The notes: a model not told the origin generated them from the letters alone. A stretch of DNA of 64,000 nt from an uncultured Bacteroidia bacterium (GCA_902784785.1 CACZWF010000003.1:2129-66128); one strand, 5' to 3'; shown: positions 14 to 64,000, counted from the first letter of the stretch. Made by a program: numbers and translations.

Positions 14-3000
14 ATGAAAAGACTACATTTCAAATCCATCCGAATCCTCTCGCTGCTGCTCTGCGTCTGGGCAGCCTGCCTGCCGTTTTCGTTGCAGGCG
101 GCATCCGGCCAGTCGGTCAGCGGTACGGTAACGGATGCAGCCGGAGAGCCGGTCATCGGCGCTTCCGTGATGATTGGCGGTACGACCCGTGGTGTCGTCA
201 CCGACCTGGATGGCAATTACTCCATCGGTGGATTGGTCGATACCGATGTGCTGGAAGTGAGCAGCATCGGTTTCGCCACGCAGAGCATTCCCGTGAGGGG
301 ACGCAAGCAGGTGAACGTCATTCTTGAAGAGGACACCAACTTCCTCGACGAGGTCGTTGTCGTGGGTTATGGCACCACCACCCGTAAGCACATTGTCTCC
401 TCCATTTCCAGCGTGAACAGCGAGGCCTTGGCCGACCGTCCCGTTGCCAATGTGCAGCAGGCTCTGCAGGGAGCCGCCGCCAACCTGGTTATCCAGACGG
501 GCAGTTTTGACCCGACCAACAGCAGTATGAACATTTCCATCCGTGGCGTCAGCACGATGGGCAACAATACGCCGCTGGTCGTCATAGACGGGGTGCCGCA
601 GGCGGATGCCAGCCGGATGAACGACCTTAACCCCAATGATATCGAGTCTGTCAACATCTTGAAGGATGCCGGTTCCTCTGCTATCTACGGGGCTCGTTCC
701 TCCAATGGCGTCATCCTGATCACCACCAAAACAGGAAAACGTGAGAAGGCTCCCGAGGTGCGCTTCAGCGCCCAGGCCGGCGTGCAGAACCCGCACATTC
801 TCTACAAGCCCGTTCCTTCTTATATGAACGCGATGCTGCGAAATGAATCCCTTGTCAATGTCGGTCTGGACCCCATCTTCACCATCGAAGATATCCAGAG
901 TTTCAAGGAGAACGGCGACTCCAAGCCCTTGGTCGAGCAGGCGATGCGGAATGCCCTTCAACAGAACTACAACCTGAGCATTACCGGCGGTACGGCACAT
1001 ACGACCTATATGATTTCCGGCTCGTTCTTCAACCAGAACTCCAACTACATCGGCCCCCGCTATGGCAATGACCGGTATAATCTTCGTACCGCCGTCACGA
1101 CCGAGTGGGGACGCTTCAAGGTGGGCGCCAATGTGAGTTATACCCGGCAGGAAACCCTTTCCCCTGTGACCAGCGGCCTGTTTTTTGCCGACCTGGTCCG
1201 TTTCCCGACCTATTATTTCCTCCGTACGCAAGGCGAATACAACGGACAGCCCGTTTACTTTGCCAACAACTATAAGTATGGCAATCCCAGTGCCGTGTTG
1301 GCGGAGTTGATTTCGGGCGGTTCCAACAAGTACGACAACGAGTACTTGACCGGTACCTTCAATGCGGATTTTGAAATCATCGAAGGTCTCAAACTTCGGG
1401 CGGTGGTCAGCGCGGAAACCCGCAACGAGCATCGTTTCACCGACAAGCACGCCTACCTGGTCGCCACCGACGACGGTCCCAACTGGTCCAATCCTTCTTC
1501 GGCAGTGCTCGGCGGCAACACCACTACCCCGGCGGGTGACTGGACGGGCCGCAGTACGTATCTCAACACGCAGGTGTTGCTGGATTTCAACCGGACCTTT
1601 GCCCGCGACCATTATGTCAGCGCTTTGCTGGGCTGGTCGCAGGAGTCCAACAAAAATTACTCGACGGGCGTCGACAAGAGTTATCTCAACGATCTCAACC
1701 AGCCCTCTTCGGACACCGTCATCGAGGAGAGCACCTATCTCTCTTCCCAGAACAACAGCGCCTATGCCTTGCGTTCTTTCTTTGGCCGTGCCAGTTACGC
1801 TTATGCGGAAAAATATTATATCGAACTGACGGCCCGCTACGATATGTCGTCCAAGTTCCTCAAGGTTCGCAACGCCGGTTTCTTCCCCGCCATCTCCCTA
1901 GGTTGGCGCGCTTCCGGCGAATCCTTTATGGAAGGCTACCGCAATGCCTGCGGCGATCTGAAAATCCGTGCCTCCTACGGTCTGAACGGTAATCAGCAGG
2001 ATGTGGGTCTGTACGACTTTATGACCACCTATGGCGTCTGGTCCAATGCCTATGCCTTCAACGGAAAGGCGGTCTCCGGACTGATGTTCACGATGGGTAA
2101 CGAGCTGCTGACCTGGGAGAAGGCCCGCACCTTCAATGCCGGTCTGGACGCCTCCTTCTTCAAGAATACCTTGAATCTCAATTTCGACTGGTTCTACAAA
2201 CGCACGTCCGACATCCTGCTCCCGTCCATCGTCACGGGTATGTACGGCGCTAGTATCGCCAAGGAGAACCGCGGTGTGATGGACAACACCGGTTGGGAAC
2301 TGACGATTACCTACGACCTGAACCACGACACCGATTTTCATCACAGTTTCTCCTTCAACCTGGCCGACTCCAAGAACAAGGTTATCAAGTATGGTACTCC
2401 TTCCATTGCCCCCAACGATGGTGTGACAGTCATCACGATGGAGGGACTTCCGCTCAATTCCTACTATGGTTACAAGACGGATGGGTTCTTCTCCACCTAT
2501 GAAGAAATCCTGCATTCTCCCGTTCCCAGCGGCATTGACCGCACCCAGCTCCGTCCCGGCGACGTGAAATATGTGGACATCAACGAAGACGGGGTCATCG
2601 ACGAGAGCGACCGTACCTACCTGGGTTACGGCTTCCCGCGCTACACCTATGGCTTCAGCTACAGTTTCAAGTGGAAGGGAATCGACTTCGGCTTTATGCT
2701 GCAGGGCGTCCTGAAACGCACCAGTGCGGTGCGCGGCGAGCTCTTCGAGCCTTTCCACGTGGATTATGGTACCACGATGTACACCCACCAGATGGATTAC
2801 TGGGCCCCCGACAACACCAATGCCAGATGGCCCCGCCTGACGGCGTATGGCTCCGTGAGCCAGGTGAACAACTGGGGACAGCCCGGTTCGGAACTCAATA
2901 TGCTGGAAGGTGCTTATCTGCGCGTGAAGAACATCCAGATCGGCTATACCTTCCCCAAGGAATGGACCACCAAGTTCTACTGCCAGAGCCTGCGCATCTT

Positions 3001-37985: not shown

Positions 37986-38090
37986 TTGGTTGCATAGAAC
38001 ACGCTAAAAATTTCTCTTCCGATGAAGAGGAAACAAAAGTACAAAAAAATTTGCTTTTCTCTCGGCTTGCTCGTAAATTTGTAAGATATA

Positions 38091-39431
38091 ATGAAAAGAA
38101 AGTTCGCATATATTTTTGTCCTCTTCTCCCTGCTGTTCTCCCAGCATCTGGGCGCCCGTCCGGCTGATGACGAACGCCGGGTGATGGTAGGGCTTATCGA
38201 TGCCGTGGACCTGTTTGCCCAAGGAGAATACAAGGAGGCCTCCCGCATTTTTTCCGCGCTGATCCGCCGCTATCCTGAGGATGATGCCCTCAATTATTAT
38301 ATGTCCCTGTGTACGATTGCCGATTACAAAGTCGCCAATGCCGTTTATTTTATAGAAAAGGCCGCCGCGATCGATTCGACCAATTTCATCTATCGCCATC
38401 GGCTCGCGCAAATCTATGCCGTCACCAAGGACTACGACAAAGCCATCGCGCAGTATGAACGCCTGAAGGCCGAGCGTCCCTATCAAACCGAACTGCAGGA
38501 TGAACTCGGTGAGGTCTATCTGCATTCCGGCCGTTTCAACGACTATTATCCCATTGCCTATTCTTATATGGTAGAGGAGGGGCTGAGCGAAGAAGACAAA
38601 TTGCGCTACCTGTCCAGCGTCTTCGGCGATTTGTCCCGCGAAGAATTCCGTTCTAAGCGCCCGTTGGCCGATTCCTTATACTTAAAGTTAACGTACCAAT
38701 ATCCCGAAAGTGCCAACGCGCTTGTCTCCTGGACCAAGGTGCTGGCCTGGCTGGGCGATTGGGAAAATCTTGATCGCTATGCCTCGGAGGGGGTGGCCCG
38801 TTTCCCGCAGGATACCACGCTCTGTCACTACAGCGCGGCTTCCAAATTCTTCCGGAAAGACTATGACGGAGCCGCCAAAATGCTTGAAAAACTCATCGTC
38901 CTGCAAAAAGACGAGCCCAAGAAACAGCTTTCTACTTATAGTTGGCTAGGGGATTCCTATTATAAAGCTGGCCGTAGCGCCCAATGTTTCAAAGCCTACG
39001 ACAAAGCCCTGGCCCTGGATCCGGACAATGTTCCCATTCTCAATAACTACGCCTACTTCCTTTGCCTGCAAAAGAAGAATCTGAAAAAAGCGCTGGCGAT
39101 GAGCGAAAAGACCATTCAGGCCGAGCCGGACAATGTCACCTATCTGGACACCTACGGTTGGATTCTCTACCTGATGGGCAAGCCCGAAGAAGCCCGCTTG
39201 CAATTCAACCACGCCAAACTCTACGGTGGCAACGACCAGGCGGTCATCCTCGACCATTTCGCCACGGTCCTTTATGAACTTGGCGAATATCGTCTGGCAT
39301 ACTCTTATTGGGAGAAATGCAAGTTGAAAATGACGGAAGAAGACAGCGGGGAGGTGAAAGATCTGGAGCAAAAGATAACAGCGGCCAAGGAGGCCATTCA
39401 GAACGGACATGGTAAGAAACTGGGCAAATAG
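38091..39431 (+). CDS. Tetratricopeptide repeat protein
   Basis: Signal peptide; repeated TPR helices; LNNYAYFL, YLDTYGWI motifs. Confidence 0.85.
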   Translation: MKRKFAYIFVLFSLLFSQHLGARPADDERRVMVGLIDAVDLFAQGEYKEASRIFSALIRRYPEDDALNYYMSLCTIADYKVANAVYFIEKAAAIDSTNFIYRHRLAQIYAVTKDYDKAIAQYERLKAERPYQTELQDELGEVYLHSGRFNDYYPIAYSYMVEEGLSEEDKLRYLSSVFGDLSREEFRSKRPLADSLYLKLTYQYPESANALVSWTKVLAWLGDWENLDRYASEGVARFPQDTTLCHYSAASKFFRKDYDGAAKMLEKLIVLQKDEPKKQLSTYSWLGDSYYKAGRSAQCFKAYDKALALDPDNVPILNNYAYFLCLQKKNLKKALAMSEKTIQAEPDNVTYLDTYGWILYLMGKPEEARLQFNHAKLYGGNDQAVILDHFATVLYELGEYRLAYSYWEKCKLKMTEEDSGEVKDLEQKITAAKEAIQNGHGKKLGK

Positions 39432-43994: not shown

Positions 43995-45313
43995 ATGGGT
44001 CAAGGACTTTCATTGGAGCAGAAGTTGCAGCAGCGGCTTTCCCCGTTGCAGGTGCAGACCATCAAGATTCTCCAACTTCCCCAACAGGAGTTGGAGGCTT
44101 TGGTGCGCAAGGAACTCGAAGAGAACCCCGTTCTGGAAGATACGCCGCCCGTCCGTAGTGAAGAGGGAGCCGGCGCCTCCGGGGAGTCCCCCTCTGAAGA
44201 AGCGCCCAAAGATGTTTCTTTGGAAGAGTACAAGGAGGATTCCACCCCCTATTATAAATTATATGTCAATAACCGCGGTCGGGACGAAGACCCCAAAAGG
44301 GAAACCCTGTCCGTCAAGGAGGGTATCACCGAGTCGTTGATGGAGCAGCTGGGCTACAGCGAATTGGACGAGCATCAGTACCGTGTCGCGGCGTTCATTA
44401 TCGGCAGTCTCGACGAAGATGGCTACCTGCGCCGGACCGTGACCAATGTGGTGGACGACCTGGTCTTTCGGGTGGGCCTCGAGACGAATGAAGAAGAAGT
44501 GGAGGCGCTTCTGCACGTGATTCAAGAGTTTGAACCGGCCGGAGTGGGGGCCCGCGACCTGCGCGAGTGCCTGCTGCTGCAATTGAAACGTCGTCCACAG
44601 ACCGAAGATGTCAAACGGGCCACGCTGATTCTGGAAAAATATTTCTACGAGTTTTCCAACCGTCATTACGATAAAATCCTGTCCCGTCTCGGTATTACGC
44701 GGGAACAACTCAAGGATGCGCACGCTGCGATTCTCAAACTCAATCCCCATCCCGGAGGAATCATTGATGACAGTTACAGCTACAAGGCGCAGCAGATTAT
44801 TCCGGATTTTTATCTGACCTACAAAGACGGAAAGTTCGAGTTGGAATCGATTCGGCCAACCTGTTGATTGAAGCCCTCAAGCAGCGTCAGAATACTTTGC
44901 TCAAAACGATGCAGGCCATCATCGACTACCAGCACGACTACTTTATCGACGGGGACGCCAGGCATCTTCGTCCGATGGTGCTCAAGGATATTGCCGACAT
45001 CACGGGCTTCGATATTTCTACGATTTCCCGCGTGGCCAATTCCAAATATATCGAGACGCCTTTCGGGGTTTTCTCCCTCAAATCCTTCTTCTCCGAGGGT
45101 ATGGAAAATAAAGAAGGGGAGGAGATTTCTACCAAAGAAATCAAGCAGGCCCTCCGTCAGTGTGTGGATGAGGAGGATAAGCACAACCCGCTGACCGACG
45201 ATGAACTGGTGGAGAAACTTTCTGCAATGGGGTACAAGGTGGCCCGCAGGACGGTGGCCAAATACCGCGACCAGCTCTCCATTCCAACCGCCCGCCTTCG
45301 CAAGGAGATCTGA
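43995..45313 (+). pseudogene. rpoN: RNA polymerase sigma-54 factor split into 43995..44867 and 44864..45313 by an internal frameshifting deletion
   Basis: N-part: LQQRLSPLQVQ, LEENP, GVGARDLRECLLLQ; C-part: DSANLLIEALKQRQNTL, STISRV..KY and RpoN box ARRTVAKYR; frames switch at ~44846. Confidence 0.85.
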
Positions 45314-50213: not shown

Positions 50214-50273
50214 TATTGCAAAGGTAAGCAAAAAATTTGCTTTTCTCTCCATTAGATTTTATCTTTGTAGGTT

Positions 50274-51437
50274 ATGTCAAGCAATGGAAAAATATTGATT
50301 GTGGATGACGAGCGCGCCATCCGCAATTCTTTAAAAGAGATACTCGAAGATGAAGAGTATGAGGTGGAGGTGGCCCCCGACGCTCCTACGGCTTTGCAGA
50401 TGGTGGACGGAGATCATTTTCAGGTGATTCTCTGTGACATCAAGATGCCCGGAATGGACGGGGTGGAGCTGCTTTCCCAATTACACGAGAAAGTGCCCGA
50501 CACGGCGGTCGTGATGATGACCGGTCACGGGGATATCGATACGGCGGTGGACTGCATCCGCAAAGGGGCCTATGATTTTCTGACCAAACCCCTGGATCTC
50601 AACCGCATTTTGATCACCATCAAAAACGCCCTCGACAAGACCCAGTTGGTAGGTGAGACCAAGACCCTCAAGAAAAAAGTCTACAGCGGCGGTGATATGG
50701 TCGGCGAGTCGGAGGGGATGATGGCCCTGCGCGAAATGGTGGACAAAGTGGCCCCGACCGAGGCCCGGGTACTAATCACGGGACAGAACGGAACGGGGAA
50801 GGAACTGGTGGCCCGCAGCCTGCATCAGCGGAGTCTGCGTGCGTCCAAGCCCTATATCGAAGTGAACTGCGCCGCCATTCCTTCCGAATTGATCGAGAGT
50901 GAACTGTTCGGTCATGAAAAAGGTTCTTTTACGTCCGCCATCAAGCAGCATAAGGGCAAGTTCGAGCAGGCCGACGGCGGCACGCTTTTCCTGGATGAAA
51001 TCGGAGATATGTCCTTGGCCGCGCAGGCGAAAGTGCTGCGCGTGCTGCAGGAAAAGAAACTCTCCCGCGTGGGCAGCGACAAGGATATCGAGGTGGATGT
51101 GCGCGTGCTGGCGGCCACCAACAAAGACCTCAAGGCGGAGATTGCCAAGGGGACTTTCCGCGAAGACCTCTACCACCGTCTGAGCGTCATCGTCATCCAC
51201 GTTCCCTCTTTGGACGAGCGCAAGAGCGACATTCCTCTGTTGGTGGAACATTTTATCAACCAGATCGGCCAGGAGACCGGTATGGCCCGCAAGGACATTA
51301 CGCCGGAGGCGATGCAGATGCTGGTGGACAAGTCCTGGACCGGAAACATCCGCGAACTCCGCAATGTGGTGGAGCGCCTGCTGATTCTGGGAGCCCAGCC
51401 CATCAACGCCAATGATGTCAGAAACTACGTATTTTAA
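50274..51437 (+). CDS. NtrC/NtrX-family response regulator with AAA+ domain, no C-terminal HTH
   Basis: Receiver (IVDDE, CDIKMP, KP), Walker A GQNGTGKE, ESELFGHEKGSFTSA, LFLDEI, FREDLYHRL, WTGNIRELRN, then stop. Confidence 0.9.
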   Translation: MSSNGKILIVDDERAIRNSLKEILEDEEYEVEVAPDAPTALQMVDGDHFQVILCDIKMPGMDGVELLSQLHEKVPDTAVVMMTGHGDIDTAVDCIRKGAYDFLTKPLDLNRILITIKNALDKTQLVGETKTLKKKVYSGGDMVGESEGMMALREMVDKVAPTEARVLITGQNGTGKELVARSLHQRSLRASKPYIEVNCAAIPSELIESELFGHEKGSFTSAIKQHKGKFEQADGGTLFLDEIGDMSLAAQAKVLRVLQEKKLSRVGSDKDIEVDVRVLAATNKDLKAEIAKGTFREDLYHRLSVIVIHVPSLDERKSDIPLLVEHFINQIGQETGMARKDITPEAMQMLVDKSWTGNIRELRNVVERLLILGAQPINANDVRNYVF

Positions 51438-56624: not shown

Positions 56625-56673
56625 TATTTTTTATTTTTAGAATATTTGCTTATCTTTGCAGAAAGATTCAGAA

Positions 56674-56976
56674 ATGAGAGTCATAGCCAAGAAGACTTTG
56701 GTCGCTTTTTATACCAAGCACGCAGATGCACAGACTGCGTTGGAGGAGTGGTACGAAAAAACGGAAAATGCGGAGTGGGAGAATTTTTCCGAACTTCGAA
56801 AGACTTTCAATTCTGTGGACAGTGTGGGAAACAAGCGCTTTATTTTCAATATTAAAGGAAATGACTATAGACTGATTGCTATCGTTCTATTTAAAATAAA
56901 GATGGTGTATATCCGCTTTATTGGCACACATAAAGAGTACGATAAGTTATCAGAAGAGCAAATTAAAAATATCTGA
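56674..56976 (+). CDS. higB: Type II toxin, HigB family
   Basis: MRVIAKKTL..LEEWY..FNIKGNDYRLI..IRFIGTHKEYD. Confidence 0.92.
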   Translation: MRVIAKKTLVAFYTKHADAQTALEEWYEKTENAEWENFSELRKTFNSVDSVGNKRFIFNIKGNDYRLIAIVLFKIKMVYIRFIGTHKEYDKLSEEQIKNI

Positions 56977-56978
56977 AT

Positions 56979-57347
56979 ATGGCAAAGATTGAAACGCAGG
57001 CACAATACGAGGCTACCATGGCCCGCATTGATGAACTTTTGACGCTCGTGGATGAGAACACGCCTCTTGATGACAAGAATAGCGTGGAACTTGTTCTTTT
57101 GTCAAATCTTGTTGCGGATTATGAAGATGTTCATTATCCGATTAAATCGCCTGCGCTCGTTGATGTCTTGAAACTTCGTATGTACGAAATGGGCCTCTCT
57201 CAAGCTGCGCTGGCCGCGCTTTTGGACATGAATCAGTCCAAGATAAGCGAAATTCTTGCGGGAAAGAGCGAGCCTACGCTTAAGCAGGCTCGAAAAATGT
57301 CAACTACATTGCATATTTCCCCCGCCGTCGTTTTGGGAATCAATTAG
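56979..57347 (+). CDS. higA: Type II antitoxin, HigA family (HTH)
   Basis: IETQAQYEA..LSNLVADYE..P and an HTH (LSQAALA..SKISEIL); 2 nt after the toxin. Confidence 0.9.
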   Translation: MAKIETQAQYEATMARIDELLTLVDENTPLDDKNSVELVLLSNLVADYEDVHYPIKSPALVDVLKLRMYEMGLSQAALAALLDMNQSKISEILAGKSEPTLKQARKMSTTLHISPAVVLGIN

Positions 57348-57870: not shown

Positions 57871-58000
57871 AGGAATAAAAAATTGCAAATTCACAAAAAT
57901 TTTGGAAAAAATGTAAAAGTGTCAAAAAAAAGAAAAACTTTTCTTGACATTTCGACTTTTCCCATTCCCATTGTCTATCTTGCGCGCCAAAATTGTGCGT

Positions 58001-58705
58001 ATGGAGACAAAAGAATCATGCAATGTCAATGTGGATGCCCTATTTGAGAGAATTTCAGCTTTAATTGAGGGCGCAAGAAAGATGGTGGCCACTGCGGTGA
58101 GCGTCGCAGAAGTGTATACTAAATATGAAATCGGTCGCTATATTGTCGCGGACGAGCAGAATGGAAAATATAGGGCCGCCTATGGAAAACAAGTTCTGAA
58201 ATGTCTTGCCGATAGATTAAAACGTGAATATGGCAATGGCTGGTCTGAGGATACTCTTGGTCGTTGTCGTAAATTCTTTGAGATATATTCAGAACCTCGG
58301 ATTTCCGCAACGCCGTTGCGGAAATTCAAATCACCCATTCCGAATGTACATAATTTCGTTTTAACATGGAGCCATTATCTCGTGCTGATGCGCGTTGAAA
58401 ATGCAGATGCGCGCAGTTTCTATGAGGTGGAATGTGCTAAACAAAACTGGAGTGTTCGCTGGTTGCAGATGCAGATGTATGTCAATTATTATGACCGCTA
58501 TCAGAAACAAAATTTTGAGAATCCGACAGTTGGAATTCTGCTCTGCAAAGAGAAGAATGATGCGCTTGTAGAGCTGACTCTTCCAAAAGAGTCAAATGTC
58601 TATGCTGCTCAGTATGAGCTATATTTGCCAAACAAGAAAGATTTACAGGCCAGATTGAGGTCTTGGATTGAAGAATTCGAAGACCAGAATGAAGAGAATC
58701 AATAA
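58001..58705 (+). pseudogene. YhcG/DUF1016 (PDDEXK nuclease-like) gene with an apparent in-frame internal deletion
   Basis: DUF1016 N-domain (KYEIGRYIV, AAYGK, LTWSHY, FYE.E..NWSVRWL) joined directly to C-terminal MQMYVNYYDR..ENPTVGILLC; middle part absent. Confidence 0.65.
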
Positions 58706-58879
58706 ATTTCTCTGCCGATGTGTCTCTGGCTTGCTTATAGGGCTTATTCCTATGGATTGCCCCTCGCCGTTATAGGGTCGCGGGTGAGCGGAATGGTGCA
58801 TTGTCGAAAATTGGGGGAAACTGAAAAATTATTTTTATCTTTGTGGGTCAATAAGATAGGAAATTTTAAACAACCCTCT

Positions 58880-59821
58880 ATGAAGACTGTTCTGCACCAC
58901 TTTTTGCACCTTTTCTTGGCTGCCTTCCTTTTTATAGCAGCATTCTCTTTTTCTTCTTGCAGCCGCAAAACTGAAAAAATTTCCGTCGGGCAGGTATTTT
59001 TCGATCAGGAGTATTTTGTGATGAAAGTCGGCGAGAGTGCGGTGCTGACGGCCAGAGTCTTTCCGGATAACGCGGATGACAAATCTTTGATTTGGACCTC
59101 CTCCAACAAAGGTGTCGCCACGGTTGACCAAAATGGAAAAGTGACGGCCGTCTCAGCGGGAACCGAAATCATCACAGCCACGACAAAAGACGGCAGTTGG
59201 CAGTCTGCGAGTTGTTCTGTCGTGGTCATAGACGAGCCTACTGCTGTCGATTTGGGATTAAGTGTCAAGTGGGCTTCTTTCAATCTTGGCGCGTCTGCGG
59301 CTGATGAGTGTGGGTTGTATTATGCTTGGGGCGAGATTGCGCCCAAGTCGAAATACGACTGGTCAACGTATCAATGGAGCAACGGCTCATATACTTCTTT
59401 CATCAAGTACAATACAAGCCGTGATTTTGGCCCTGTTGTCGACAATAAAACTACCCTTGAGCCCGACGATGATGCGGCTCACGTAGTACTCGGCGGCGGT
59501 TGGCGTATGCCGACCATTGAGGATTGGGCGGAATTGTGGTATGGCTGCGATTGGAGTTGGGCTACGCAAAATGGTATGAATGGTTACAAGGTTACGAGCA
59601 AGAAGTCGGGCTACACGGGTAAGTGGATTTTTCTTCCCGCTGCGGGCAGCCGGCTCGACACCCATATCGGCGATGTTGGTTCCTACGGCAATTATTGGTC
59701 TTCTTCTCTCGGTACGGTCGACCCGGACTACGCGCGTTTCGTGTACTTCCATTCCGAAGGTGTCTATTCTACCGGAAAAAGCCGTTGCTTCGGGTACTCT
59801 GTCCGTCCCGTATTAGAATAA
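58880..59821 (+). CDS. Lipoprotein with Ig-like (Big_2) domain and C-terminal DUF1566/CLec-like domain
   Basis: Lipobox FSSC; WTSSNKGVATVDQNGKVTAVSAG; AVDLGLSVKWA..GLYYAWGE..WRMPT..FLPAAG..YWSSS..GYSVRPV. Confidence 0.75.
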   Translation: MKTVLHHFLHLFLAAFLFIAAFSFSSCSRKTEKISVGQVFFDQEYFVMKVGESAVLTARVFPDNADDKSLIWTSSNKGVATVDQNGKVTAVSAGTEIITATTKDGSWQSASCSVVVIDEPTAVDLGLSVKWASFNLGASAADECGLYYAWGEIAPKSKYDWSTYQWSNGSYTSFIKYNTSRDFGPVVDNKTTLEPDDDAAHVVLGGGWRMPTIEDWAELWYGCDWSWATQNGMNGYKVTSKKSGYTGKWIFLPAAGSRLDTHIGDVGSYGNYWSSSLGTVDPDYARFVYFHSEGVYSTGKSRCFGYSVRPVLE

Positions 59822-59884
59822 AGGACGGTCGGGACCAGCGATTGTTGAGTCCCCCGGTTGGGGATTGTGTGAAGTAAATAAAAA

Positions 59885-59986
59885 TTTGCTTTTCTCTCCA
59901 TTTGAATGTATCTTTGCAGAAATTATGGATAAGAATCTTCATAGTAATCGATAACGACAGTTCCCGCTGAGGGAACTGTTTTTTTT
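59885..59986 (+). promoter_or_regulatory. pyrC leader: promoter, 9-codon uORF (59925..59954, MDKNLHSNR) and terminator hairpin (59957-59986)
   Basis: TTTG 59885-88, 20-nt spacer, TATCTTTG 59909-16; stem acagttccc/gggaactgt plus T-run; duplicated at 63032-63132. Confidence 0.78.
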
Positions 59987-59991
59987 ATAAT

Positions 59992-61323
59992 GTGCGTATG
60001 ACCGACACTTGGCTCCTTAAAAATGTGCTTTTTGTTTCGCAAGGACAGGTTTCCCGCGAAGAGGTCTATGTGACGAAGGACGGCGTTTCTTTTCTTGGAG
60101 AAGACGCACTGGCCGTAGGAATCGGGGTCACGCCGTTCGGTGAAGGGGGGATTCTTTTCCCGGATAGCGGAGCTTCCCGTCGCGTGACAGAAATCGATGC
60201 GAGTGGCTGCCTGCTTTGTCCTTCGCTGGCCGATATGCACGTGCATTTCCGCCAGCCGGGCTATGAATACAAAGAGACCATCGCCAGCGGCAGCGCGGCT
60301 GCGGCCCGCGCGGGCTATGGCCTGGTGGCGGCCATGCCCAACCTCAATCCCGTTCCCGATAGTTTGGAAACTTTGGCGTTGGAGCAAGACATCATCGACA
60401 AGGACGCTGTGATTACCGTGTTGCCCTATGCCGCGATTACTAAAGGGCGCAAGGGGCGGGAATTGGTGGATTTGTTCGCCCTCCAAGAACATTGCGTGGC
60501 TTTTTCCGACGATGGAAGTGGGGTGCAGGACGATGCGATGATGGAGAAAGCGATGCGGCTGGCGGCCTTCTATGATTGCATTATCGCGGCCCATTGCGAA
60601 GACAACCGACTGCTCAACGGGGGGTATATCCACGATGGAGCATACGCCCGCGCCCACGGCCACAAAGGCATTTGTTCCGAGAGCGAATGGGGGCAGATTG
60701 CCCGCGACCTCGAACTGGCCGCCAAGACCGGCTGCCGTTACCACGTCTGTCATATTTCCTGCAAGGAAAGCGTGGAGATTATCCGTCAAGCCAAAAAATC
60801 CGGCGTGAAAGTGACTTGCGAGACGGGTCCGCATTATCTGTTGCTCAGCGACAAAGACCTGCAGGAGGACGGACGCTTCAAGATGAATCCGCCCATCCGC
60901 AGCGAAGCGGACCGCGAGGTCCTGCTGGAAGGCTTGGTGGACGGCACGATTGATATCATCGCCACAGACCACGCGCCGCACAGCGCCGAGGAAAAGTCCA
61001 AAGGGCTTGCCGGCAGCGCGATGGGCATCGTGGGCCTGGAAACGGCCTTCCCCTTGCTCTATACCTATTTGGTGGAAAAAGGAATTCTTTCCCTCGAAAG
61101 GCTGGTGGAAGTGATGGCCGAGGCCCCCCGCCGCATCTTCTCGCTGGGTTCGGCCCTCGACGAAGGCTCCTACGCCCTTTTCGACCTTGAAACCCCGTAT
61201 GCGATCGATGCGTCCACCTTTATTTCCAAAGGAAAAGCGACTCCGTTCGACGGCTGGACTGTCAAGGGGAATTGTTTGTTGAATGTCCATAAAAACAAAA
61301 TCGTCTATGGGACGCTTGAATAA
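59992..61323 (+). CDS. pyrC: Dihydroorotase
   Basis: DMHVHFRQPG, MPN, HCED, HVCHIS, ETGPHYL, KMNPP, ATDHAPH. Confidence 0.95.
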   Translation: MRMTDTWLLKNVLFVSQGQVSREEVYVTKDGVSFLGEDALAVGIGVTPFGEGGILFPDSGASRRVTEIDASGCLLCPSLADMHVHFRQPGYEYKETIASGSAAAARAGYGLVAAMPNLNPVPDSLETLALEQDIIDKDAVITVLPYAAITKGRKGRELVDLFALQEHCVAFSDDGSGVQDDAMMEKAMRLAAFYDCIIAAHCEDNRLLNGGYIHDGAYARAHGHKGICSESEWGQIARDLELAAKTGCRYHVCHISCKESVEIIRQAKKSGVKVTCETGPHYLLLSDKDLQEDGRFKMNPPIRSEADREVLLEGLVDGTIDIIATDHAPHSAEEKSKGLAGSAMGIVGLETAFPLLYTYLVEKGILSLERLVEVMAEAPRRIFSLGSALDEGSYALFDLETPYAIDASTFISKGKATPFDGWTVKGNCLLNVHKNKIVYGTLE

Positions 61324-62086
61324 GAGCTTGTTTACGATTGTTTCGCAAGAGGAAGTGGCGCCGCGCTCCTTCCTGCTGCAGTTGGAGGGGGATACCTCCG
61401 CCATTACGGGCAGCGGACAATTCGTGCAGGTGGCGCTCCCGGGACGTTATCTCCGCCGGCCCATCTCCGTCTGCAACATCACCGCCCCGCAGACCCCCGG
61501 CTTGACCAGGCATCTCACGCTTTTGTATAAGATTATGGGCGCCGGTACGGACCAGATGGCGGCGATGCAGCCTGGCGAGCGCCTCGAACTGCTCACCGGC
61601 CTGGGCAACGGCTTCGACACGGGCGCTTGCCGCGAAAAGGCGTTGCTAGTCGGTGGCGGAATGGGCGTAGCTCCTCTATACCTGCTGGCCCAAGAACTGC
61701 TCTCCCAAGGCAAGAAAGTACAGGTCATTCTGGGTTTCAACCAGGCCTCCGAGATCTGTCTGGAAGAAGAATTCCGCGCCCTTGGCGTGGAGGTGCTCAT
61801 CAGCACGGCGGACGGCAGCAGGGGAGTGAAGGGCTTTGTCACGGACGCGATTAAAACGCTCGACATCCCAGAGCCTTGCGCCTACGACTATTTCTACACC
61901 TGTGGACCGATGGTGATGATGAAGGCGGTCTGCGCCCTTTGCCCCACCGACGGCCAGGCCAGTCTGGAAGAACGGATGGGCTGCGGCTTCGGCATCTGCT
62001 ACGGCTGTACCGTCGCCACCCAGGACGGCCCCCGCCGCGTCTGCGCCGACGGCCCCGTCTTCACCAAAACCCAGCTCGGCTGGTAA
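61307..62086 (+). CDS. pyrK: Dihydroorotate dehydrogenase electron transfer subunit
   Basis: GQFV, LRRPIS, GLGNGF, GGGMGVAP, TCGP, LEERMGCGFGICYGC..CADGPVF. Confidence 0.95.
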   Translation: MGRLNKSLFTIVSQEEVAPRSFLLQLEGDTSAITGSGQFVQVALPGRYLRRPISVCNITAPQTPGLTRHLTLLYKIMGAGTDQMAAMQPGERLELLTGLGNGFDTGACREKALLVGGGMGVAPLYLLAQELLSQGKKVQVILGFNQASEICLEEEFRALGVEVLISTADGSRGVKGFVTDAIKTLDIPEPCAYDYFYTCGPMVMMKAVCALCPTDGQASLEERMGCGFGICYGCTVATQDGPRRVCADGPVFTKTQLGW

Positions 62087-62108
62087 GCGCTCAGGGCTCG
62101 TCTTTTTC

Positions 62109-62579
62109 TCAAACGAGCACTTCCCAATTCATCTTTGTTGCAAGAAGTTTCAAAAGCGTAAAGTCGGCGGACGGGATGGAGATTCTGATTTCCTGTTTCT
62201 TCCCGTATTCAACTTCGGGTTCACCCAGCATAGCTGCCGCTCGCGTGGACTGGAATGGGTCGTAGCCCGAGACATAGCGGGAGGTCCCCATCGACCGGCG
62301 ATTCTTTTCCGTATTGAATCGTTTTTGCAAGCCCAGCCAAAAGTCAGCAGAAATGCCCTCCAAAGCAGAGGCCAATTTGTCTGCGACTGCGGGAGTGATA
62401 TTTCGGCTGCCGTGGATAATGGCGCTTAGGTGCGTGGGCTGAAGCCCGGCCATTTTGGCAAATTCTCTTCCGCTGAGGCCTCTGGCAGTCAATTCCTCGC
62501 CTAAAATCTCTCCGGGATGAACGGGGAAAGCCGCTGAACTCCCATTGACAGCGAACATAATTTCATCGTTTGTTTCCAT
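62109..62579 (-). CDS. higA: HigA/VapI family antitoxin with C-terminal extension
   Basis: PVHPGEILGEEL..HTH..R.ITP..A..L..ADFWLGLQ. Confidence 0.88.
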   Translation of the reverse strand: METNDEIMFAVNGSSAAFPVHPGEILGEELTARGLSGREFAKMAGLQPTHLSAIIHGSRNITPAVADKLASALEGISADFWLGLQKRFNTEKNRRSMGTSRYVSGYDPFQSTRAAAMLGEPEVEYGKKQEIRISIPSADFTLLKLLATKMNWEVLV

Positions 62580-62883
62580 AATGCGTATCGTCTATTTCAA
62601 TTAGTTTTACTTCTATACCCTCTTCGTTTTCTGTAAAAATAAGTCTGTGAACAAAAGAATTGGAAAGCCTTACTGAAGAGAATCCGGAATATTCGTGCTT
62701 GAGTTTTTCGTAGTGCAGGCGGCTGAACTTACTTAATTCATTGATGTTAGATACTGCCAACATTGTTTCAATCGCCATAATGTACCCTTTGAGAAGAACG
62801 GGATTTCGAGCGACATCTTTATATCGCTTATTGCTCCCGGTCTTATAAAGCTCCAGCAAGTCTCCCGTCATCTTTACAACCAT
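62563..62883 (-). CDS. higB: HigB/RelE-like 'plasmid maintenance system killer' toxin
   Basis: LELY..YEKLK..SSVRL..RLIF..IEIDDTHY; overlaps the antitoxin start. Confidence 0.82.
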   Translation of the reverse strand: MVVKMTGDLLELYKTGSNKRYKDVARNPVLLKGYIMAIETMLAVSNINELSKFSRLHYEKLKHEYSGFSSVRLSNSFVHRLIFTENEEGIEVKLIEIDDTHYGNKR

Positions 62884-63031
62884 ACCTTTATTATTTGCAA
62901 AGATATGTAAAAAGATAGAATTATCATAATAATTATAATAATTATTTGTGAAATCCGGGTCGAAGCAAACAAGTTTGTTTTGCCCTCGCTAGCTGCGTCG
63001 GTTTCCTTCCGCCTCGGGAATACAAATTTCA

Positions 63032-63132
63032 TTTGCATTTCTCTCAGTTATCGCGTATCTTTGCAGAAATTATGTGTAAGAACCTTCATACTAATCGATA
63101 ACGACAGTTCCCGCCGAGGGAACTGTTTTTTT
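63032..63132 (+). promoter_or_regulatory. pyrD leader: promoter, 9-codon uORF (63072..63101, MCKNLHTNR) and terminator hairpin (63104-63132)
   Basis: TTTG 63032-35, 20-nt spacer, TATCTTTG 63056-63; same stem acagttccc/gggaactgt plus T-run as the pyrC leader. Confidence 0.78.
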
Positions 63133-63150
63133 ATAATGTCGTTTTGTACA

Positions 63151-64000
63151 ATGGATAAGGACCGTCAAAAATGCGACCTGCAGGTGCGGTTGGGGGATTT
63201 GACCCTGAAAAATCCCGTCATTCCCGCCAGCGGAACCTTCGGTTTCGGCTTGGAGATGAAGGAGGTCTTCGACCTGAATCTCTTGGGCGGCATCAGCATG
63301 AAAGGGACGACGCGGGACGCCCGTTTCGGCAATCCTACTCCGCGTATCGCCGAATGCCGCGAAGGAATGATCAATTCGGTGGGCTTGCAGAACCCGGGCA
63401 TCGAGGCGTTGGTCAGCGAAAAGGCGCCGGCTTTGCGGGCGGTGTATGACGGCTGCATCATTGCCAATATCAGCGGCTTTTCCGTGGAGGAATATGTGGA
63501 ATGCTGCCGCCGGGCCGATGCTTGCGCGGCCATCGATATGCTCGAAATCAATGTCTCCTGTCCCAATGTGCACGGCGGGGGAATGGCCTTCGGAACCGAT
63601 CCGGCGATGGCTGCCCAGGTGACTGCCGCCGTCAAACAGGTGACTTCCAAGCCCGTCTATATCAAGTTGAGCCCCAATGTGACGGATATCGTGGCGATGG
63701 CGCGGGCCTGTGAGGAGGCAGGAGCGGATGGTTTGGTACTGATCAATACCCTGCTCGGGATGCGGATCGACATCCGTCGCCGCCAACCCGTGCTGGCCAA
63801 CAAGATGGGCGGCTTTTCCGGTCCGGCCATCTTCCCGCTGGCCCTGCGTATGGTCTATCAGGTGGCTCACACCTGCTCCATTCCGGTCATCGGCTGCGGG
63901 GGCGTGGCGAGCGCGGAAGATGTGATCGAAATGATGATGGCGGGGGCTTCCGCCGTTGAGGTCGGGGCCGAAAACCTCCGTAATCCCTACGCCTGCCGCG
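63151..64000 (+). CDS. pyrD: Dihydroorotate dehydrogenase family 1B catalytic subunit (runs off the window end; not in ORF track)
   Basis: Manual translation from ATG 63151: LKNPVIPASGTFGFG, KGTT, NSVGLQNPG, EINVSCPN, KLSPNV, INTL, GGFSG, IGCGG. Confidence 0.95.
   Translation, partial: MDKDRQKCDLQVRLGDLTLKNPVIPASGTFGFGLEMKEVFDLNLLGGISMKGTTRDARFGNPTPRIAECREGMINSVGLQNPGIEALVSEKAPALRAVYDGCIIANISGFSVEEYVECCRRADACAAIDMLEINVSCPNVHGGGMAFGTDPAMAAQVTAAVKQVTSKPVYIKLSPNVTDIVAMARACEEAGADGLVLINTLLGMRIDIRRRQPVLANKMGGFSGPAIFPLALRMVYQVAHTCSIPVIGCGGVASAEDVIEMMMAGASAVEVGAENLRNPYACR

What the first reader, a model, noticed from the sequence alone, without database searches (positions are those of the whole stretch)
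59885..63132. Duplicated micro-uORF plus terminator leader before pyrC and pyrD: candidate UTP-sensing attenuator in Bacteroidales
Seen: a ~90-nt element occurs twice. It has a promoter, an ATG only ~8 nt after the -7 box, a 9-codon ORF (MDKNLHSNR at 59925..59954; MCKNLHTNR at 63072..63101), a stop 2 nt before a perfect 9-bp stem (acagttccc/gggaactgt) and a 7-8 T run, then the pyr gene. Differences spare the reading frame and the stem (one synonymous codon, one conservative, one non-conservative, one loop base). No antiterminator helix is evident and no pyrR is in the window. Established: in E. coli rph-pyrE and pyrBI, low UTP slows RNA polymerase so the trailing ribosome masks the terminator. 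Inference: a minimal, nearly leaderless version of coupling-dependent pyrimidine attenuation, which I do not recognise as described for this phylum.
Basis: partly seen in the sequence, partly recalled or inferred. Interest (0 to 1): 0.75.

Follow-up and report, generated by a model that had tools for sequence, protein, structure and literature searches.

The report
Tiny leader-ORF terminator switch before pyrimidine genes
A 66-nt leader (promoter, 9-codon mini-gene, terminator hairpin butted against its stop codon) sits before both halves of a split pyrimidine-synthesis operon in a ruminant-gut Bacteroidales bacterium; relatives carry the same design, which looks like a stripped-down version of the E. 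coli pyrE/pyrBI ribosome-coupled attenuator and appears undescribed for this phylum.

Summary
Two ~110-nt copies (59884-59993 and 63031-63139) each carry a -33/-7 Bacteroidetes promoter, an ATG 8 nt after the -7 box, 9 codons, TAA, then a 10-bp hairpin and T7-8. The first precedes pyrC-pyrK; the second precedes pyrD(-pyrF-pyrE).

No Rfam, Pfam or NCBIfam family matches.

Copy 2 is a cassette duplication. A higBA-like toxin-antitoxin pair was inserted between pyrK and pyrD, which overlap in relatives. The copies therefore say little on their own.

The weight comes from relatives:
- Species with only 71-72% identical PyrC keep an orthologous leader: 9 codons, stop 1-2 nt before the same hairpin, and a scrambled ORF interior.
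- At least four other Bacteroidales leader families, including Alistipes, have uORFs of 17-45 codons.
- All of these uORFs end between 6 nt before the terminator and 45 nt beyond its start.
- All sit in front of pyrimidine operons.

The geometry matches E. coli rph-pyrE and pyrL. The closest relatives (89-91% PyrC) lack the leader.

Best reading: a ribosome-coupled intrinsic-terminator attenuator, probably sensing UTP.

Translation of the uORF, the start site, termination and the UTP signal are all untested. No RNA data exist for this organism.

Verdict: new variant of a known kind, moderate interest.

The parts
59880..59898 (+). Extended -33 promoter module AAAAATTTGCTTTTCTCTC (TTTG at 59885-59888), copy 1
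   Evidence: Read from sequence. The same module also lies at 38050, 50236 and 63027.
59909..59916 (+). -7 box TATCTTTG (Bacteroidetes TAnnTTTG); predicted start site 59921, giving a 4-nt 5' UTR
   Evidence: The box spans -12 to -5 according to PMC9723704. The start site is inferred, not mapped.
59925..59954 (+). uORF 1: ATG plus 8 codons plus TAA (MDKNLHSNR)
   Evidence: The strain variant C59949T makes codon 9 a TGA stop.
59956..59986 (+). Intrinsic terminator 1: 10-bp stem GACAGTTCCC/GGGAACTGTT, loop GCTGA, T8 at 59979-59986
   Evidence: pair probability 1.0; -15.9 to -16.5 kcal/mol.
59998..61323 (+). pyrC (dihydroorotase)
   Evidence: Pfam DHOase/Amidohydro_1 and NCBIfam dihydroorotase models.
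61283..62086 (+). pyrK (dihydroorotate dehydrogenase B, electron-transfer subunit)
62109..62883 (-). Inserted toxin-antitoxin pair: higA (62109-62579) and a small upstream partner ORF (62563-62883). It splits pyrK from pyrD.
   Evidence: HigA model TIGR02607 at 58.7 bits against a cut-off of 47.7. The partner ORF has no family hit. pyrK and pyrD overlap in L096, L097 and L099.
63027..63063 (+). Promoter of copy 2: -33 TTTG at 63032-63035, -7 box at 63056-63063; predicted start site 63068
63072..63101 (+). uORF 2 (MCKNLHTNR plus TAA)
63103..63132 (+). Intrinsic terminator 2: same stem, loop GCCGA, T7
63151..64000 (+). pyrD (DHOD-B catalytic subunit), cut by the window end. It continues as pyrD-pyrF-pyrE on the same-species contig L090.

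Best explanation
Each copy is a self-contained, regulated promoter cassette for pyrimidine-synthesis genes.

Proposed sequence of events:
1. Transcription starts about 4 nt before the ATG (predicted).
2. RNA polymerase then needs only about 66 nt to reach the end of a strong intrinsic terminator.
3. By default the hairpin forms and a 65-66-nt RNA is released, so the operon is OFF.
4. If a ribosome has loaded on the nearly leaderless 9-codon ORF and reached its stop codon, it covers the 5' arm of the hairpin. The arm begins 1-2 nt after the stop.
5. The hairpin cannot form, and polymerase reads through into pyrC-pyrK (copy 1) or pyrD-pyrF-pyrE (copy 2).

Whether the ribosome arrives in time depends on polymerase speed. 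When UTP is scarce, polymerase lingers on the U-requiring stretch. Here that stretch is essentially the terminator's own run of 7-8 U. The lag gives the ribosome time, so expression rises when pyrimidine nucleotides are low.

This is the logic of E. coli rph-pyrE and pyrBI, reduced to a minimum.

Shown: the anatomy, its conservation, its restriction to pyrimidine operons, and the absence of an alternative RNA fold.

Inferred: the start site, translation of the uORF, termination, and UTP as the signal.
For: 1. Orthologous leaders. L097/L098 and L099 (PyrC 71-72% identical) have the -7 box, 9 nt, ATG, 9 codons (MKSHQSYEK / MKTIQSYEN), TAG, then 1-2 nt and the hairpin (A/G)CAGTTTCC..GGGAACTG with T7.
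   - By my position-wise count of the sequences, the ORF interior is about 29% identical to the window's, which is roughly random.
   - The ATG, the length, the stop (TAA changed to TAG) and the 65-66-nt transcript length are all kept.
2. Hairpin changes among window, L095, L097 and L099 are all transitions in the 5' arm that give G-U pairs. These pair only in RNA of the + strand.
3. Other Bacteroidales leaders before pyrimidine operons have uORFs as follows:
   - 17-18 codons: L021, L023, L074, L002
   - 25-28 codons: L101, L103, L104
   - 33 codons: L069, Alistipes inops/Tidjanibacter
   - 41 codons: L016, L055, L059, of which L016 is named Alistipes sp.
   - 45 codons: L100, running through the terminator
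   Their stops lie from 6 nt before the hairpin to 45 nt beyond its start.
4. Every leader that had both a promoter and a terminator had such a uORF.
5. An architecture scan of 1.37 Mb (both strands) found it only before pyrC or pyrD, apart from one weak hit.
6. Frame is preserved. L074 differs from L021 by an in-frame 3-nt indel, and three strongly diverged Alistipes-type leaders all keep 41 codons. Shuffle p is 0.03-0.07 for the long leaders.
7. The downstream genes are always pyrimidine-synthesis genes: pyrC-carA(-carB), pyrC-pyrK-pyrD, or pyrC-K-D-F-E-B.
8. E. coli comparators fetched here:
   - pyrL has 44 codons and runs through its terminator.
   - The wild-type rph stop lies 5 nt before the pyrE hairpin.
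   - That hairpin is -14.7 kcal/mol with U8.
   - The U fraction of the preceding 30 nt is 0.23, against 0.30 in the window.
9. In E. coli, a stop codon a few nt before a terminator represses termination only when translation is coupled. Terminators in the first ~100 nt normally escape the ribosome unless polymerase pauses (PMC4824070). Moving the rph stop toward the pyrE attenuator loop is reported to be what gives proper regulation of pyrE (PMC2784333).
10. No antiterminator fold exists. The terminator pair probability is 0.99-1.0.
11. The same promoter class drives two ordinary protein genes whose ATG lies 6-9 nt after the -7 box (38091 and 50274). Very short 5' UTRs therefore appear to be translatable here.
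12. After the toxin-antitoxin insertion, the whole cassette was copied in front of pyrD, not just a promoter.
Against: - No transcript, ribosome or termination data exist for this organism. Only DNA metagenomes hold it.
- The 9-codon ORF is not significant on its own (shuffle p 0.35-0.43).
- The short leaders lack the U-rich pre-terminator tract seen in the long ones (U fraction 0.20-0.30 against 0.43-0.60). UTP sensing would have to rest on the terminator's own U run.
- The closest relatives (L091 at 91%, L092-94 at 89%) and L096 (72%) have a plain promoter and no leader. The element is therefore dispensable.
- L095 keeps the hairpin but has no clear promoter or ATG.
- Common strains have C59949T, a stop one codon earlier. 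This is tolerated by the model but shows the peptide end is not conserved.
- Whether Bacteroidales couple transcription and translation tightly is not known to me.
Confidence: 0.6

Rival explanations
1. The terminator is a ribosome-coupled attenuator, but the signal is not UTP. It reports general translation capacity or growth rate, meaning how fast ribosomes load on a new transcript. That would tie nucleotide synthesis to ribosome availability.
For: The short leaders have no U-rich pause tract. The uORFs are A-rich and unstructured, which suits fast loading. The stop-to-hairpin geometry fits any coupling-dependent read-out.
Against: The design is found only before pyrimidine operons. The longer relatives carry conserved U-rich tracts such as TTGTTGTTTTTC just before the terminator. 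The E. coli precedents are UTP-specific.
Confidence: 0.12
2. The hairpin is a constitutive, leaky terminator or insulator, and the small ORF is incidental. The element sets a fixed low expression level or isolates the operon from upstream transcription.
For: A 9-codon ORF arises by chance fairly often (p about 0.4). Close relatives do without the element. L095 keeps the hairpin without a visible uORF.
Against: The promoter lies inside the cassette, upstream of the terminator, so it does not insulate. The ATG, the ORF length and the stop position are kept while the interior is scrambled. All 16 leaders with both a promoter and a terminator have a uORF reaching the hairpin.
Confidence: 0.1
3. 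A trans-acting RNA-binding protein (PyrR-like or unknown), or a small RNA, binds the leader and controls termination. The ORF is not translated.
For: The 3' arm and T run are invariant, and the stem sequence is conserved rather than covarying within the 9-codon family. PyrR does this job in Firmicutes (my knowledge).
Against: The terminator sequences of the other leader families are unrelated. No alternative fold exists for a protein to stabilise. No Rfam PyrR hit. No pyrR in the window or in the operons seen. A caveat: Rfam did not recognise what I took to be PyrR sites in Firmicutes loci either, so that negative result is weak.
Confidence: 0.08
4. The 66-nt product is itself the point: a small RNA acting in trans, or a 9-residue peptide.
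For: A strong promoter plus a strong terminator would make an abundant short RNA. There is a weak resemblance to Bacteroidetes FopS sRNAs (19.2 bits).
Against: The FopS score is far below the cut-off of 56. The resembling stretch is not kept in L097 or L099. The peptide sequence is not conserved, and strains truncate it. The element always sits directly before pyr genes.
Confidence: 0.05
5. The inverted repeat is a DNA operator for a dimeric repressor that acts as a roadblock.
For: It is a perfect 9-10-bp palindrome at +36 to +60, with conserved arm sequence.
Against: It is always followed directly by T7-9. The arm changes give G-U pairs, which are valid only in RNA and break DNA symmetry. Other lineages have unrelated stems with the same T run.
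Confidence: 0.03

Closest known systems
E. coli rph-pyrE attenuator (UTP-modulated, coupling-dependent)
   Same: An upstream ORF stops a few nt before an intrinsic terminator that directly precedes a pyrimidine gene. The wild-type rph stop is 5 nt before the hairpin; here it is 1-2 nt. Hairpin strength and U8 tail are similar, and there is no antiterminator. The U content before the hairpin is also similar, 0.23 against 0.30.
   Different: In E. coli the masking ribosome comes from a full-length gene (rph) and is already coupled. Here it must load de novo on a 9-codon ORF with a predicted 4-nt leader, all within 66 nt of the start. The sequences are not homologous, the phylum differs, and the promoter type differs.
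Enterobacterial pyrBI leader (pyrL)
   Same: A dedicated leader ORF plus a terminator stand before pyrimidine genes. L100 (45 codons, running through the terminator) and the 41-codon Alistipes-type leaders with U-rich tracts mirror the 44-codon pyrL.
   Different: The window's ORF is 9 codons, ends before the hairpin and has no U-rich pause tract. The leader peptides do not match Pfam, including the PyrBI leader family, or NCBIfam. There is no sign of the UTP-sensitive reiterative transcription run at the start.
PyrR-dependent attenuation (Bacillus and other Firmicutes)
   Same: Same pathway and same outcome: a terminator in the leader of pyr operons.
   Different: That mechanism needs a PyrR protein, a binding loop and antiterminator/anti-antiterminator folds. 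None was found here.
Leaderless polycysteine uORF attenuators of mycobacteria (bioRxiv 10.1101/834739, listed)
   Same: A very short ORF at or near the 5' end of the transcript controls the downstream operon.
   Different: Those sense cysteine through runs of Cys codons. Here there are no diagnostic codons, the stop abuts an intrinsic terminator, and the pathway is pyrimidine synthesis.
Amino-acid leader-peptide attenuators in Bacteroidota (Bacteroid-trp, which I recall as Rfam RF01692; Flavobacterium leaders noted in PMC9723704)
   Same: Same phylum, and ribosome-mediated control of a terminator.
   Different: Those use regulatory codon runs and alternative antiterminator hairpins, with the stop placed well before the terminator (more than 20 nt in classical cases, PMC4824070). 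Here there are no regulatory codons and no alternative fold, and the stop touches the hairpin.

Membership tests
rph-pyrE-type coupling attenuator | [quoted passage not shown] | tested here: met
   The stop ends 1 nt before the 10-bp stem (2 nt before the perfect 9-bp stem). pyrC ATG is 11 nt and pyrD ATG 18 nt after the T run. In E. coli the wild-type gap is 5 nt.
rph-pyrE-type coupling attenuator | Read-through depends on translation of the upstream ORF and rises when UTP is low. | not testable with these tools
   No RNA or ribosome data exist for this organism.
pyrBI leader (pyrL) | The leader peptide is homologous to PyrL. | tested here: not met
   Seven leader peptides of 25-41 residues from relatives gave no Pfam or NCBIfam hit at E up to 10. 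The 9-mer is too short to test.
pyrBI leader (pyrL) | U-rich pause tract upstream of the attenuator. | tested here: not met
   U fraction of the last 30 nt is 0.30 in the window and 0.20-0.23 in L097/L099, against 0.43-0.60 in the long Bacteroidales leaders and 0.40 in pyrL.
pyrBI leader (pyrL) | The leader ORF can place a ribosome on the terminator hairpin. | tested here: met
   Geometry as above. L100 even reads through the hairpin as pyrL does.
PyrR-binding attenuator | PyrR binding loop (I recall this as Rfam RF00515) and alternative antiterminator folds. | tested here: inconclusive
   No Rfam hit in the window or in 13 loci, and no alternative fold. However, Rfam also failed on the Firmicutes leaders I used as a positive control.
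PyrR-binding attenuator | A pyrR gene in or near the operon. | tested here: not met
   The only PRTase in the window is apt (NCBIfam NF002636, 194 bits). Operons in L090, L096, L097 and L099 contain pyrC, K, D, F, E and B only. The rest of the genome was not seen.
Classical leader-peptide attenuator (trpL type, Bacteroid-trp) | Runs of regulatory codons, plus an antiterminator that competes with the terminator. | tested here: not met
   No repeated codon occurs in MDKNLHSNR or its orthologues. No competing helix was found. No Rfam hit.
FopS sRNA family (RF04319) | Score at or above the family's gathering threshold. | tested here: not met
   19.2 bits against 56. Much of the match is the terminator hairpin and U tail.

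The most novel reading that the evidence does not exclude
A minimal, portable pyrimidine-responsive expression cassette of about 110 bp. A near-leaderless 9-codon ORF delivers the ribosome, and the terminator's own U run is the only UTP sensor, with no pause tract, no antiterminator and no protein. This would show that kinetic transcription-translation coupling can be read out within the first 66 nt of a transcript, in a phylum that lacks Shine-Dalgarno initiation. It would also show that such cassettes are copied to re-regulate operon fragments after mobile-element insertions. The family would span uORFs from 9 to 45 codons across Bacteroidales.
Probability: 0.4. Interest if true: 0.7.

Novelty: new variant of a known kind. 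Interest (0 to 1): 0.55.

Why it matters
To my knowledge, pyrimidine-operon control in Bacteroidota is undescribed. My four full-text searches aimed at it found nothing.

If the reading is right, three things follow:
- The gut's dominant Gram-negative order uses the enterobacterial 'repression without repressors' logic, arrived at independently.
- It uses it in a form small enough (66 nt) to test what is minimally required for ribosome-polymerase coupling in an organism without Shine-Dalgarno sequences.
- It would supply a compact, native, uracil-responsive expression part for Bacteroides engineering.

The comparison set also gives a natural series for dissecting which features matter: 9-, 17-, 25-, 33-, 41- and 45-codon leaders, natural deletions (L091, L092, L096) and a natural duplication.

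Tried and rejected
- **Hairpin pattern scan of genome contigs.** It returned only chance terminators in Firmicutes (L081-L089).
- **First exact look-up of the window PyrC.** It failed; the later look-up of P0001 worked.
- **RNA evidence.**
  - Only DNA metagenomes from bovine and goat gut hold the window.
  - For the Alistipes-type locus L059, shallow metatranscriptome contigs show only that leader and pyrC lie on one RNA contig starting between 2436 and 2478. The predicted start is 2460.
  - Other runs behaved like DNA.
- **T-run length comparison.** Attenuators averaged 7.4 and other predicted terminators 5.0. I rejected this because most of the 'other' predictions are false positives inside genes.
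- **Rfam positive control for PyrR** on Firmicutes leaders failed.
- **FopS resemblance** rejected.
- **Per-leader shuffle test** is not significant for the 9-codon leaders.
- **Reiterative transcription or start-site switching** was considered and rejected. The predicted initial sequences AAUUAUG (window) and AGAAUAUG (L097/L099) have no homopolymer run of 3 or more, and they differ between the two.
- **Formal pair counting on alignment A2** was not run. MAFFT mis-registered the 5' arm by one column, so the pairs were read by hand.


Full report
**1. What is there**

The window comes from an uncultured Bacteroidales bacterium of the ruminant gut.
- GC is about 0.55.
- It is held only by bovine and goat gut DNA metagenomes.
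- Its PyrC relatives are named 'Bacteroidales bacterium'.

Two copies of a roughly 110-nt element lie at 59884-59993 and 63031-63139. Each copy has, in order:
- a Bacteroidetes -33 TTTG and a -7 TATCTTTG box
- an ATG 8 nt after the box
- eight further codons and TAA
- 1 nt, then a 10-bp hairpin GACAGTTCCC/GGGAACTGTT (about -16 kcal/mol, pair probability 1.0)
- a run of 8 or 7 T

The -7 box spans -12 to -5 in this phylum (PMC9723704). The predicted start sites are therefore 59921 and 63068. The predicted 5' UTR is 4 nt and the terminated RNA is 65-66 nt.

**2. Context**

The gene order is: copy 1, pyrC, pyrK, then a higA antitoxin gene and a small partner ORF on the other strand, then copy 2 and pyrD.

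A same-species contig (L090) shows pyrD-pyrF-pyrE following. In relatives L096, L097 and L099 the operon is unbroken: pyrC-pyrK-pyrD-pyrF-pyrE-pyrB directly after a Metallophos_2 gene, with pyrK and pyrD overlapping. Metagenome contigs of other relatives also join pyrK straight to pyrD.

So a toxin-antitoxin insertion split the operon, and the whole promoter-leader cassette was copied in front of the orphaned half. The two copies are therefore not independent witnesses. The 'sparing' pattern of their 5 substitutions carries little statistical weight. What it does show is that a complete cassette was retained rather than a bare promoter.

**3. Known families**

- The Rfam gathering scan of the window gave 0 hits, as did a scan of 13 related loci.
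- The permissive scan gives only chance-level matches. The best Bacteroidetes one is FopS, at 19.2 bits against a cut-off of 56, and much of that match is the terminator hairpin and U tail.
- Leader peptides of relatives match nothing in Pfam or NCBIfam.
- No pyrR is in the window. The only PRTase is apt.
- My intended positive control for PyrR sites in Firmicutes loci was not recognised by Rfam either. That negative result is therefore weak.

**4. Orthologues of the 9-codon leader**

A protein search gave a graded series of PyrC relatives, and their contigs were fetched.

| Locus | PyrC identity | Leader |
|---|---|---|
| L097/L098 | 71% | TATATTTG, 9 nt, ATG AAG AGC CAT CAA TCA TAC GAA AAA TAG, 1 nt, ACAGTTTCC TGCAAA GGGAACTGT, T7 |
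| L099 | 72% | same design, ORF MKTIQSYEN |
| L095 | 76% | homologous hairpin, but no clear promoter or ATG |
| L091 | 91% | none: a plain promoter a few nt before pyrC |
| L092-94 | 89% | none: a plain promoter a few nt before pyrC |
| L096 | 72% | none: a plain promoter a few nt before pyrC |

By my position-wise count of the sequences, the interior of the L097 ORF matches the window's at 7 of 24 positions. That is about what chance gives for this composition. Yet the ATG, the 9-codon length, the presence of a stop (TAA changed to TAG), its distance from the hairpin and the 65-66-nt transcript length are all kept.

The three stem changes across the family are all transitions in the 5' arm that create G-U pairs. 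This is expected for an RNA hairpin on this strand and not for a DNA palindrome.

L091 looks like a clean deletion from just after the -7 box to the T run. The element is thus older than the window species but has been lost repeatedly.

Common strains of the window species carry C59949T, which turns codon 9 into TGA. The T runs also vary by one.

**5. The same design elsewhere in Bacteroidales**

Eighty loci were fetched with PyrC. Most have sigma-70-type promoters and Shine-Dalgarno sites and look like Firmicutes (my reading). Every locus with a Bacteroidetes promoter and a terminator before pyrC also has a uORF that reaches the terminator. So does every later look-up of that kind.

| Loci | uORF length | Position of the stop | 5' UTR (predicted) |
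|---|---|---|---|
| L021, L023, L074 | 17-18 codons | 3 nt before the hairpin | 4-5 nt |
| L002 | 18 codons | in the loop | 15 nt |
| L101 | 25 codons | 6 nt before the hairpin | 5 nt |
| L103 | 28 codons | overlaps the first stem bases | 11 nt |
| L104 | 27 codons | in the loop | 5 nt |
| L100 | 45 codons | runs through the terminator, ends at the pyrC start | 7 nt |
| L069 (Alistipes inops/Tidjanibacter) | 33 codons | overlaps the stem | 23 nt |
| L016, L055, L059 (L016 named Alistipes sp.) | 41 codons each | 4-5 nt before the hairpin | 14-16 nt |

Further points:
- The downstream genes are always pyrimidine genes: pyrC-carA(-carB) or pyrC-pyrK-pyrD.
- A mechanical scan for 'a -7 box, an ATG within 22 nt, an ORF of up to 60 codons, and a stop at a terminator' over 1.37 Mb (both strands) found the design only before pyrC or pyrD, plus one weak hit.
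- L074 differs from L021 by an in-frame 3-nt indel.
- The three Alistipes-type leaders are strongly diverged yet keep exactly 41 codons.
- Shuffle tests give p of 0.03-0.07 for the long leaders, 0.15-0.26 for the middle ones and about 0.4 for the 9-codon ones. The case therefore rests on recurrence across families, not on any one short leader.
- The long leaders have U-rich tracts before the terminator (U fraction 0.43-0.60; conserved TTGTTGTTTTTC). The short ones do not (0.20-0.30).

**6. Comparison with E. coli, using sequence fetched here**

- pyrL has 44 codons and reads through its terminator, as L100 does.
- The wild-type rph frame ends in TGA 5 nt before the pyrE hairpin, which is -14.7 kcal/mol with U8.
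- The U fraction of the 30 nt before that hairpin is 0.23.

The window element therefore resembles the pyrE attenuator most, including the lack of a long U-rich tract.

Two papers supply the functional background:
- PMC4824070 shows that in E. coli a stop codon a few nt before a terminator suppresses termination only when translation is coupled. It also shows that terminators within the first ~100 nt normally escape the ribosome unless polymerase is paused.
- PMC2784333 summarises earlier work in which moving the rph stop closer to the attenuator loop is what gives proper regulation of pyrE by uracil.

**7. Mechanism proposed**

By default, polymerase outruns the ribosome over 66 nt and terminates. 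When UTP is low, polymerase is slow on the U run that ends the terminator. The ribosome then finishes nine codons, sits on the stop and covers the 5' arm, and polymerase reads through.

Low UTP alone would be expected to favour termination, not relieve it. That is why a ribosome is needed to invert the response (established reasoning for pyrBI and pyrE; my knowledge).

Very short 5' UTRs seem usable in this organism. The same extended promoter module (AAAAATTTGCTTTTCTCTC) precedes two ordinary genes whose ATG lies 6 and 9 nt after the -7 box.

Shown here: the anatomy, its conservation, its pathway specificity and the absence of an alternative fold. Inferred: the start site, translation, termination and the signal.

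**8. Verdict**

- The duplication is a cassette copy after an operon split.
- The element is dispensable in close relatives.
- The 9-codon form is one end of a family that runs up to pyrL-like 45-codon leaders.

I found no description of pyrimidine attenuation in Bacteroidota in four full-text searches aimed at it. That is not proof of absence.

I rate it a new variant of a known kind, with interest 0.55.

Noticed in passing
window 38050-38093, 50236-50276, 59880-59927, 63027-63074: The extended promoter module AAAAATTTGC(T/A)TTTCTCTC occurs four times. Each time a TAnnTTTG box follows, with an ATG only 6-9 nt after it. Two of the four are ordinary genes: a TPR protein at 38091 and a sigma-54-dependent response regulator at 50274. 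This looks like a repeated promoter class that gives near-leaderless mRNAs.
   Followed up: partly
window 62109-62883 (- strand): A HigA antitoxin gene (TIGR02607) and a 106-aa partner ORF with no family hit are inserted between pyrK and pyrD. Those two genes overlap in relatives L096, L097 and L099.
   Followed up: yes
window 56656-57347 and 57944-59821: There are two more insertions relative to L097 and L099, where the RNA methyltransferase, Metallophos_2 and pyrC genes are adjacent. One is a second toxin-antitoxin-like pair: a 106-aa ORF plus an HTH_3 protein. The other is a DUF1016/YhcG nuclease gene plus a Big_2 lipoprotein gene in a low-GC stretch (0.46). The block looks like an insertion hot spot.
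   Followed up: partly
window 59949: The strain polymorphism C>T in three metagenomes turns uORF codon 9 (CGA) into TGA, giving TGA TAA. T-run lengths vary by one in both copies (59979, 63125).
   Followed up: yes
window 43995-45313: The sigma-54 gene appears split. The activator-interacting and core-binding domains end at 44867, and the DNA-binding domain restarts at 44909 from profile position 30. This could be a frameshift, a pseudogene or an assembly error.
   Followed up: partly
window 14-24968: A polysaccharide-utilisation locus with SusC/SusD/SusE-like genes and GH76, GH125 and GH92 enzymes. This gene set suggests alpha-mannan use.
   Followed up: no
L101 1400-1425, L104 1470-1495, L100 60-80: Inside the 25-45-codon uORFs there is a small hairpin with one compensatory pair (C-G changed to U-A): GCCGGCATGGCCGGT, CATCGGTGGGACCGATG and TCGGCGGAGCCGA. 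A U-rich tract follows it. This is a candidate pause hairpin that would synchronise ribosome and polymerase.
   Followed up: partly
L016 3975-3994 versus E. coli L107 ~800-830 (- strand): The terminator arms of the Alistipes-type pyrC leader (GGGCGACT..GGTCGCCT) are nearly identical to those of the E. coli pyrE attenuator (AGGCGACT..AGTCGCCT). This is probably coincidence or convergence.
   Followed up: no
window 59923-59948; L097 4903-4927: UAUG at the start codon can pair with a CAUA kept about 11-12 nt downstream in all four 9-codon leaders. This would be a weak hairpin that sequesters the AUG. It is predicted for window copies 1 and 2 and for L097, but not for L099.
   Followed up: partly
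L095 206-297: The homologous terminator hairpin is retained before pyrC, but without a recognisable promoter or ATG. It follows a small Cys-rich ORF, so it may be a degenerate leader now serving as that gene's terminator.
   Followed up: partly
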